Shown piece after piece: positions 53,892 to 54,650 of a DNA stretch of 64,000 bases. The position numbers and the translations under genes were made by a program. Numbering within the stretch: the stretch's first letter is position 1; every line of letters starts with the position of its first letter. Source of the DNA: an uncultured delta proteobacterium (lineage in GTDB: Bacteria; Myxococcota_A; Polyangia; Haliangiales; Haliangiaceae); assembly GCA_963848295.1 (NCBI GenBank), contig CAWKDB010000002.1:1408001-1472000 (forward strand). Reading direction: 5' to 3'. The notes beneath the pieces were generated by a model. The model did no database searches. It was not told where the DNA came from and saw nothing but the letters and a program-made list of their open reading frames with translations.

Positions 53892-54093
53892 GCGGACGCC
53901 CGATTCGCCGGGGCCGTCTCGCCCGTCGCGCCGCACTCGCGCCGGCGCCGTGACGAGCGCGAGCACAAATCTCCGCACGCGTCGGTCGATCCAACTCGGC
54001 GGCGGTCGTTCGCACGCGTCGGTGGCCTCGGCGCTCGGCGCGGCGCTGGCGCGAAGCGGCGCAGGGCGACGGCCCCGGCGATCGGTGCGCCGC
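53892..54093 (-). ncRNA. Putative structured leader (RNA or ssDNA long hairpin), copy 1
   Basis: ~200-nt imperfect fold-back, homologous to 54454-54650 with compensatory stem changes. Transcription is not shown by the sequence. Confidence 0.6.
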
Positions 54094-54106
54094 GAGCGCG
54101 AAAGGT

Positions 54107-54424
54107 GGCGGCATCGGCATCGGCATCGGCTGCGGCATCGGCTGCGGCTGCGGCGTCGGCATCGGCTGCGGCTGCGGCTGCGGCTGCGGCGACGGCTGCG
54201 GCTGCGGCGACGGCTGCGGCTGCGGCGTCGGCATCGGCTGCGGCTGCGGCTGCGGCTGCGGCTGCGGCTGCGGCTGCGGCTGCGGCGACGGCTGCGGCTG
54301 CGGCGACGGCTGCGGCGACGGCGGCGGCGACGGCGGCGGCGGCGGCGACGGCGGCGGCGGCGGCGACGGCGGCGGCGACGGCGGCGGCTGCGGCTGCGGC
54401 GACGGCGACGGCGACGGCGACGGC
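54107..54424. repeat. Degenerate hexamer array (CGGCNN)n, middle
   Basis: Units cggcat/cggctg/cggcga/cggcgg. Confidence 0.95.
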
Positions 54425-54453
54425 TTTAGAACCCTCGATGCTCCTTCGCTCGC

Positions 54454-54650
54454 GCCGATGGGCGGAACGTCTCTCTCGCCCTGCGCCGCTTCGCGCTTGT
54501 CCCGCGCCGAGCGCCGAATGCGCCGGCGTCTGCGATCGACCGCCGCGGAGTTGATCGGCCGGCGATTGCGGTGGTCAGCGCCCGCGCTCGTCACGGGACC
54601 CGCGCGAGTGCGGCGCGACGGGCGAGAGAGAGACGTTCCTACCCATCGGC
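54454..54650 (+). ncRNA. Putative structured leader (RNA or ssDNA long hairpin), copy 2
   Basis: GCCGATGGGCGGAACGTCTCTCTCGCCC pairs with GGGCGAGAGAGAGACGTTCCTACCCATCGGC, and pairing continues inward. Confidence 0.6.

What the first reader, a model, noticed from the sequence alone, without database searches (positions are those of the whole stretch)
53892..54650. ~200-nt fold-back element with compensatory changes between two copies
Seen: the outer stems differ in sequence yet pair in both copies (copy 1 CCGATCGCCGGGGCCGTC/GACGGCCCCGGCGAATCGG; copy 2 GCCGATGGGCGGAACGTCTCTC/GAGAGACGTTCCTACCCATCGGC), each with a 2-nt surplus on the 3' arm next to GGGC. An inner helix switches GCGCCG/CGGCGC to GTCCCG/CGGGAC. 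Conserved blocks are TCGCCCTGCGCCGCTTCGCGC, CGAGCGC/GCGCTCG, GCGAGTGCGGCGCGACGGGCGAGA and a central TGCGAWCGACCGCCGCSGAGTTG. Both are preceded by CCTT(T)CGC(GC)TCGCG. Inference: selection on structure, as an ncRNA/5' leader or an attC/REP-like ssDNA substrate. I cannot match it to a known family.
Basis: seen in the sequence. Interest (0 to 1): 0.8.

Follow-up and report, generated by a model that had tools for sequence, protein, structure and literature searches.

The report
Hairpin end of selfish gene cassettes
A conserved 230-base fold-back sits in front of each of two small back-to-back genes in a cassette copied about ten times in this soil bacterium, is predicted to cover their ribosome-binding site, and in related genomes brackets an unrelated DNA-cutting (HNH) gene from either side, so it likely marks the ends of an undescribed family of selfish elements.

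Summary
Both fold-backs are real (z about -6.9) and covary (20 of 34 core pairs, 54 homologues). They lie back to back, each ending at the start of an Avd-like four-helix-bundle (PF05635) gene. The cassette recurs ten times in this genome; all 24 hairpins precede such a gene. A close relative has empty, collapsed or decayed sites. In other genomes of the genus the same hairpin precedes GxxExxY genes and points at DUF222-HNH endonuclease genes from upstream or downstream (42 copies toward, none away; biased sample), sometimes on both sides. Best reading: a shared end module of small selfish elements that likely silences its cargo in read-through RNA. The HNH protein is a candidate mobiliser, but most such genes lack the hairpin. 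RNA versus DNA is unsettled. Not Rfam, REP, attC, rRNA-IVS or DGR. The scan found the four-helix-bundle cassettes before (96 notes, one in this genome); three word searches found no note of the HNH link.

The parts
54099..54105 (-). anti-Shine-Dalgarno of A, predicted to pair with the SD at 53878-53884
54437..54448 (+). anti-Shine-Dalgarno of B, predicted to pair with 54660-54671 (SD GGAGG at 54661-54665)
53550..53870 (-). four-helix-bundle gene A, 106 aa, PF05635/TIGR02436
54672..54995 (+). four-helix-bundle gene B, 107 aa, PF05635/TIGR02436; predicted fold like Xcc0516 and DGR Avd
54110..54421 (+). central hexamer tract, 52 units of GGC-NN-C, between the two hairpins
53046..53472 (+). left hexamer tract (interrupted), same polarity as the central one
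55150..55350 (+). right hexamer tract (approximate ends), same polarity
54996..55145 (.). non-coding module after gene B, shared in whole or part by several cassettes of this genome; an inverted look-alike lies near 52930-52975

Best explanation
The fold-back is likely the shared end module of a family of small selfish elements: here it stands in front of each four-helix-bundle gene of a multi-copy cassette and is predicted to fold over the ribosome-binding site, and in relatives it points inward at GxxExxY or DUF222-HNH nuclease genes. SHOWN: the structure is under selection; it sits at a fixed distance from the start codon; the cassette is dispersed, patchy between close relatives and exchanged between copies; the same hairpin accompanies three unrelated cargo genes and faces the HNH gene from either side. 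PREDICTED: when a neighbouring host gene reads through into the element, the rod zips up and its anti-SD closes the cargo's SD, keeping the cargo nearly silent unless the rod is cut or transcription starts inside it (protection from outside promoters as in IS10/IS200, recalled). INFERRED: the near-invariant core of about 21 bp with a C-A / G-C / C-U motif is a protein-recognition or processing site common to all cargo types; new copies arise rarely, by cutting at or next to the hairpin followed by recombinational repair, with the DUF222-HNH protein as the likeliest enzyme where it occurs; flanking direct tracts let the cassette collapse or permute. My odds per step: selected structure 0.97, element end 0.8, functional SD occlusion 0.7, HNH as mobiliser 0.3.
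For: Covariation: 20 of 34 pairs in 54 homologues. 24 of 24 hairpins in the own genome lie within 25 nt of a four-helix-bundle gene or its remnant. Both core motifs at the expected distance in 84 of 118 full-length upstream regions of related genes. SD paired to a partner over 150 nt upstream in 46 of 52, against 10 of 52 when that 40-nt segment is shuffled; anti-SD and SD differ between A and B and both pair. Ten cassettes at 91-100% (A) and 93-100% (B) identity; 9 of 9 A and 10 of 10 B genes examined are intact, differences at 4-fold sites 0.16/0.15 against 0.05/0.06 for amino acids, 189 of 325 and 197 of 406 site pairs incompatible. Relative G104: no intact cassette at any of 10 sites looked at; empty at two, a solo tract at one, a 174-nt remnant at one, a decayed A unit at one, another gene at the window's site, one flank swap. 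Of 92 distinct hairpins in loci L280-L399: 42 point at a DUF222-HNH gene (29 upstream, 13 downstream), none away, 33 lead into a four-helix-bundle gene, 4 into GxxExxY, 13 none. Hairpins on both sides of one HNH gene in L310, L311, L316, L319, L382; 335- and 412-nt inverted repeats in L310, L311. Hairpin, four-helix-bundle gene and HNH gene in tandem in L380. Control loci: 0 of 29.
Against: Only 5 of 30 best-per-genome DUF222-HNH loci carry the hairpin within about 1.5 kb, and hairpin-bearing HNH proteins are not one clade. G084 has 14 model hits and no HNH match; the own genome's two HNH genes have no hairpin. The coding strand does not fold better than its complement (17 of 56; 16 of 42), and the conserved C-A opposition (CA 40, UA 14 of 54) would pair on the opposite strand. 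The G104 sites fit loss as well as gain, and G104 is a 1,410-contig assembly. No clear target-site duplication at two-ended elements (by eye). A co-oriented host stop lies within 400 nt in only 21 of 39 HNH-type and 9 of 29 four-helix-bundle-type hairpins by a crude gene caller. The sample of 92 was biased toward genomes whose hairpins lacked four-helix-bundle matches. No transposition or expression was observed.
Confidence: 0.5

Rival explanations
1. The hairpin works as DNA: an extruded cruciform or single-stranded end recognised and nicked by the DUF222-HNH protein, in the way REPs flank and serve a RAYT gene. The four-helix-bundle and GxxExxY cassettes are non-autonomous passengers and the SD pairing is a secondary gain.
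For: Both strands fold about equally; nearly all core pairs are Watson-Crick with invariant sequence; inverted placement on both sides of the nuclease gene; gene-less derivatives in G005 (L312-L315); 30-45-nt tandem duplications at the outer base of the hairpin.
Against: 25 of 30 HNH loci lack it within 1.5 kb; hairpin-rich G084 has no HNH match; the conserved anti-SD is an RNA-level trait.
Confidence: 0.22
2. The hairpin is a host-processed RNA site (RNase III-type), like the stem of a 23S rRNA intervening sequence. It lets an insertion be cut out of read-through transcripts and so makes it harmless; copies spread only by gene conversion and tract recombination, with no dedicated enzyme.
For: Core of about two helical turns with an internal loop; cargo family shared with IVSs, which RNase III excises (PMC4990558, passages); strong mosaicism among copies; solo tract and flank swap in G104.
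Against: Near-invariant primary sequence in the core is more than RNase III usually needs (recalled); the four-helix-bundle gene lies outside the stem, not in its loop; it does not explain first arrival at new sites.
Confidence: 0.18
3. The hairpin is the scaffold of a guide RNA for the DUF222-HNH nuclease, with the variable host flank 5' of it as guide (OMEGA-like), used to cut empty sites.
For: Constant structure with a variable 5' flank at element ends facing an HNH gene; the HNH domain's best solved relative is an IscB, over about 60 residues only.
Against: IscB model score 31 bits against a cut-off of 175; the hairpin also serves two non-HNH cargos and is absent from most HNH loci.
Confidence: 0.06
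4. The cassette is a retro-element in which the Avd-like protein and a reverse transcriptase use the hairpin RNA to write the hexamer tracts with DGR-type adenine mutagenesis.
For: In the own genome C is rare at the two variable tract positions (2.8% and 7.5% of 702 units; 16% and 22% in all such words genome-wide); Avd-like fold.
Against: In 36 other loci the variable positions are C/T-rich (85%) and G-rich (62%), not A-centred; the three RT genes found are long open frames with a YADD-type motif seen in two, read as group II intron type, none in a DGR layout (genome 85% complete).
Confidence: 0.04

Closest known systems
ORF-bearing 23S rRNA intervening sequences (Coxiella, Leptospira; S23p/PF05635), PMC4990558
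   Same: Same protein family and fold; long stem; short tandem repeats next to the gene; poor translation of the ORF.
   Different: Not in rRNA; the stem precedes the gene rather than enclosing it; 24 dispersed copies; the hairpin is shared with two unrelated nuclease genes.
REP-RAYT systems (REPtrons, REPINs, BIMEs; recalled)
   Same: Palindromes in inverted orientation around a nuclease gene; doublets and gene-less derivatives; often next to gene ends.
   Different: Hairpin 170-240 nt, not 20-40; no GTAG-type 5' motif; the flanked enzyme is DUF222-HNH, not a Y1 HUH transposase; no free copies in this genome.
REP13E12 / DUF222-HNH repeats of mycobacteria (PMC10589994, PMC13157036, passages)
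   Same: The HNH cargo in relatives matches DUF222 (10 of 15) and HNH (10 of 15) at E<=0.01; dispersed multi-copy genes; recombination between copies rearranges genomes.
   Different: No structured ends or mobility mechanism in the passages read; the window itself carries no HNH gene.
DGR accessory protein Avd (PDB 4DWL, 8UB7)
   Same: Predicted fold, TM-score 0.83-0.84.
   Different: 12% identity; no DGR reverse transcriptase, template or variable repeat at the locus.
IS200/IS10-type SD-sequestering 5' stem-loops (recalled)
   Same: Long-range pairing that hides the ribosome-binding site of a mobile-element gene.
   Different: The silenced gene is not a transposase; the pairing spans about 215 nt.

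Membership tests
Rfam families | covariance-model match at gathering score | tested here: not met
   no match on either hairpin
23S rRNA IVS with S23p | encodes a PF05635 protein | tested here: met
   55.1 and 46.4 bits, cut-off 33.8
23S rRNA IVS with S23p | inserted in a 23S rRNA helix | tested here: not met
   flanks are protein genes
23S rRNA IVS with S23p | ORF in the loop of the terminal stem | tested here: not met
   the gene follows the stem
23S rRNA IVS with S23p | excised by RNase III | not testable with these tools
   needs an assay
REP / RAYT | 20-40-nt palindrome with a 5' tetranucleotide (recalled) | tested here: not met
   228-235 nt, ends are anti-SD and SD
REP / RAYT | many gene-free dispersed copies | tested here: not met
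   0 of 24 in the own genome; a few gene-less copies in G005
REP / RAYT | flanks a Y1 (RAYT) transposase gene | tested here: inconclusive
   flanked genes found are PF05635, GxxExxY and DUF222-HNH; no Y1 family search was run
integron attC | RYYYAAC/GTTRRRY core ends and cassettes in direct array (recalled) | tested here: not met
   by inspection: no such ends, copies inverted
DGR | Avd-fold accessory protein | tested here: met
   4DWL TM-score 0.83
DGR | linked DGR reverse transcriptase | tested here: not met
DGR | adenine-specific variation | tested here: not met
   fits the own genome's tracts but not 36 other loci
OMEGA (IscB-omegaRNA) | IscB protein above family cut-off | tested here: not met
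   31 bits against 175
OMEGA (IscB-omegaRNA) | RNA-guided cleavage | not testable with these tools
   needs an assay
DUF222-HNH / REP13E12 (cargo in relatives) | DUF222 plus HNH domains | tested here: met
   10 of 15 members each at E<=0.01; HNH and zinc-binding residues conserved

The most novel reading that the evidence does not exclude
The fold-back is the recognition end, or RNA partner, of the DUF222-HNH nuclease, which mobilises its own gene and, in trans, cassettes carrying Avd-like four-helix-bundle or GxxExxY genes. This would be a new class of hairpin-ended mobile element and would give a first mechanism to the orphan DUF222/13E12 and S23p families.
Probability: 0.25. Interest if true: 0.85.

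Novelty: new variant of a known kind. Interest (0 to 1): 0.62.

Why it matters
Three widespread orphan families (S23p/Avd-like four-helix bundles, GxxExxY nucleases, DUF222-HNH or 13E12 repeats) have no known function or way of spreading. One conserved structured element physically links all three in one genus and supplies a defined substrate: a 21-bp core that can be offered to each purified protein as RNA, ssDNA or cruciform. That makes the question of how these genes move directly testable. The cassettes also seed recombination between distant loci.

Tried and rejected
DGR-type writing of the tracts: fits this genome's base bias, fails in 36 other loci. IS481-like ends (motif recalled): 5 hits genome-wide, all within 1.2 kb of a cassette, 0 in 406,540 bases of homologous loci; no IS481 transposase above cut-off, so it is lineage-specific and unexplained. 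Pattern search across 91 genomes used too short a gap and missed even the own copies; discarded. A recurring neighbour gene in L044-L178 by all-against-all BLAST: none seen in the clusters printed, but the two largest clusters were mixed chains and not resolved. Sequencing runs: no RNA holder listed; contigs of three DNA runs gave no joint. Sigma-70 promoters and intrinsic terminators in 52800-55500: none. Strand tests by energy and by G-U versus A-C counts disagreed. Concerted evolution from the E8 orthologue (92-95% to paralogues, 81% to G104) is not clean, because the G104 copy is decaying. No structure of the HNH protein was obtained. Class- and phylum-wide RNA-model searches gave no result; an order-level search found the hairpin in 6 of 7 genomes of the genus and 0 of 14 of other genera.

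Full report
Observation. Each folds into one rod with z about -6.9 against 200 shuffles. Rfam gives nothing on them.

Local anatomy. Each rod ends just before the ATG of a 106-107-aa PF05635/TIGR02436 four-helix-bundle gene. An AlphaFold model of gene B (pLDDT 94.2) matches Xcc0516, BT_0352 and DGR Avd at TM-score about 0.8. That PF05635 resembles Avd is stated in PMC10053308 (passages). Across homologues the SD pairs with a partner over 150 nt upstream in 46 of 52 sequences, against 10 of 52 when that 40-nt segment is shuffled (2 of 54 had no SD motif and were left out).

The genome. Tract, gene A, hairpin A, tract, hairpin B, gene B, tract occurs ten times at 91-100% identity, one with a truncated gene A, plus a diverged pair, a single unit and a broken unit. 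A profile finds 24 hairpins, all within 25 nt of such a gene or its remnant, none alone. The 19 genes examined are intact, under purifying selection and mosaic. The tracts keep one polarity across a cassette. A second four-helix-bundle family here sits inside inverted arms instead.

A close relative. G104 (about 89% nucleotide identity) was compared at 10 of the 13 sites; nine by direct search, E8 seen in passing. At the window's site it has an open frame that I read by eye as a sensor kinase, and no cassette. E10 is empty with two convergent stop codons abutting, E9 is empty, E3 holds a lone tract, E6 a 174-nt remnant of gene A, E8 a decayed A unit, E4 lacks the cassette at the one flank seen, the left flank of E2 is joined to the right flank of E5, and E11 is uninformative. 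This shows gain or loss as a block and rearrangement at the cassettes. It does not show direction.

Covariation. Homologous genes come mostly from records titled Kofleriaceae and from metagenomes. Of 118 full-length upstream regions, 84 have both core motifs at a fixed distance. 52 of the 56 non-redundant ones plus the two window copies were aligned by sequence only (two weak folders and two of atypical length left out). 20 of 34 core pairs change on both sides, no shuffle reaches this, and slid controls fall to 23-53% pairing. The apical half and outer stems pair in single folds but do not align. The core has an invariant GCGC helix and a C-A / G-C / C-U motif. The strand is unresolved: the coding strand is the more stable in only 17 of 56, yet the anti-SD is a coding-strand trait.

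The wider family. A covariance model hits 33 of 41 genomes of the genus and 0 of 14 genomes of other genera in the order. Of 28 best-hit loci inspected, 19 lead into a four-helix-bundle gene. Others lead into GxxExxY genes or lie next to a gene of about 370-430 aa with DUF222, zinc-binding and HNH parts. I then fetched 60 further stretches, favouring genomes whose hairpins lacked four-helix-bundle matches, so proportions are biased. Among 92 distinct hairpins, 42 point at a DUF222-HNH gene (29 upstream, 13 downstream on the other strand), none away; 33 lead into a four-helix-bundle gene, 4 into GxxExxY, 13 had none of these in front. L310, L311, L316, L319 and L382 have hairpins on both sides; in L310 and L311 they begin inverted repeats of 335 and 412 nt between host stop codons. 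L389, L395 and L399 are convergent four-helix-bundle pairs with inward hairpins, a circular permutation of the layout in this window; L380 has hairpin, four-helix-bundle gene and HNH gene in tandem. The same pairs covary in this second set (model-fitted, includes weak antisense hits). Against a strict link: only 5 of 30 best-per-genome HNH loci carry the hairpin within about 1.5 kb (control 0 of 29); hairpin-bearing HNH proteins are spread over the tree (L330 was mislabelled as lacking it); G084 has 14 model hits and no HNH match; the two HNH genes of this genome have no hairpin. Unpublished genome G010 supplies one of the 28 loci, one of the 92 hairpins, one of the 30 HNH loci and one of the 29 controls; no claim depends on it.

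Mechanism. I read the fold-back as an end module shared by small selfish elements. In four-helix-bundle cassettes it is predicted to silence the cargo in read-through RNA by hiding the SD. Its invariant core is inferred to be a protein site, since it is kept in front of three unrelated cargos and on the far side of HNH genes, where no SD is near. Spread is inferred to be rare cutting plus recombinational repair, then exchange between copies and collapse through the direct tracts. The HNH protein is the only cargo that is bracketed on both sides and so the best candidate enzyme (0.3). Rivals: a DNA end in the manner of REP-RAYT (0.22), a host RNase III site with no element enzyme (0.18), a guide-RNA scaffold (0.06), DGR-like tract writing (0.04).

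Known systems. It works partly like an S23p-bearing rRNA intervening sequence (PMC4990558, passages) and partly like REP-RAYT (recalled), but fails defining features of both, and of attC, DGR and OMEGA. DUF222-HNH genes are the mycobacterial REP13E12 repeats (PMC10589994, passages), which drive inversions by recombination (PMC13157036, passages); neither set of passages describes structured ends. Ten paper searches (listings only) showed no description of this hairpin or of the link between the three cargos. The library lacks most subscription papers, and no supplements were read.

Earlier notes of the scan. 96 findings describe four-helix-bundle genes with repeats or hairpins, one in this same genome, and some add GxxExxY. 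Three word searches for the HNH link returned nothing.

Verdict. Real, selected structure; leader and probable end of an undescribed family of selfish cassettes; mechanism of movement untested. New variant of a known kind, interest 0.62.

Noticed in passing
G000:C2:797020-797610 (L003:2700-3290); related genes at C2:271083, C10:2647165, C10:3467581, C8:9516: A second four-helix-bundle family; the copy read is enclosed by short terminal inverted repeats and inverted hexamer arrays, with a group II intron-type RT region inserted directly beside it.
   Followed up: partly
window 54996-55145 and 52930-52975: Non-coding module after gene B in several cassettes, with an inverted look-alike left of this cassette; resembles IS481-type end motifs (recalled); all 5 genome hits of the motif lie near cassettes.
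   Followed up: partly
L310:1100-1270 and 3680-3880; L311:2050-2165 and 4540-4700; L382; L340: Tandem duplications of 30-45-nt units at the outer base of the hairpin in HNH-type elements, where four-helix-bundle cassettes have hexamer tracts.
   Followed up: no
L230 junctions against G104:C557:1810-1927: A 6-bp word is repeated at both junctions of cassette E3, and the relative keeps only the right-hand tract: insertion at the edge of an older tract, or deletion between short repeats.
   Followed up: partly
G104:C854:2975-2980: Left flank of cassette E2 is joined to the right flank of E5 in the relative: a rearrangement at cassette sites.
   Followed up: partly
L310, L311, L316, L305 between hairpin and HNH gene: TTGAC-type hexamers seen by eye between the upstream hairpin and the HNH start, suggesting an internal promoter.
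   Followed up: no
L054 (and L007): A close four-helix-bundle homologue with no hairpin: the gene lies between inverted hexamer arrays, so one subfamily switches between the two layouts.
   Followed up: no
window 49436-50922: FHA / sigma-54 activator-like gene appears split over three overlapping frames; possible frameshifts or assembly errors.
   Followed up: no
G000:C10:727115-727324: Gene A of cassette E7 is cut off and followed by unrelated sequence.
   Followed up: no
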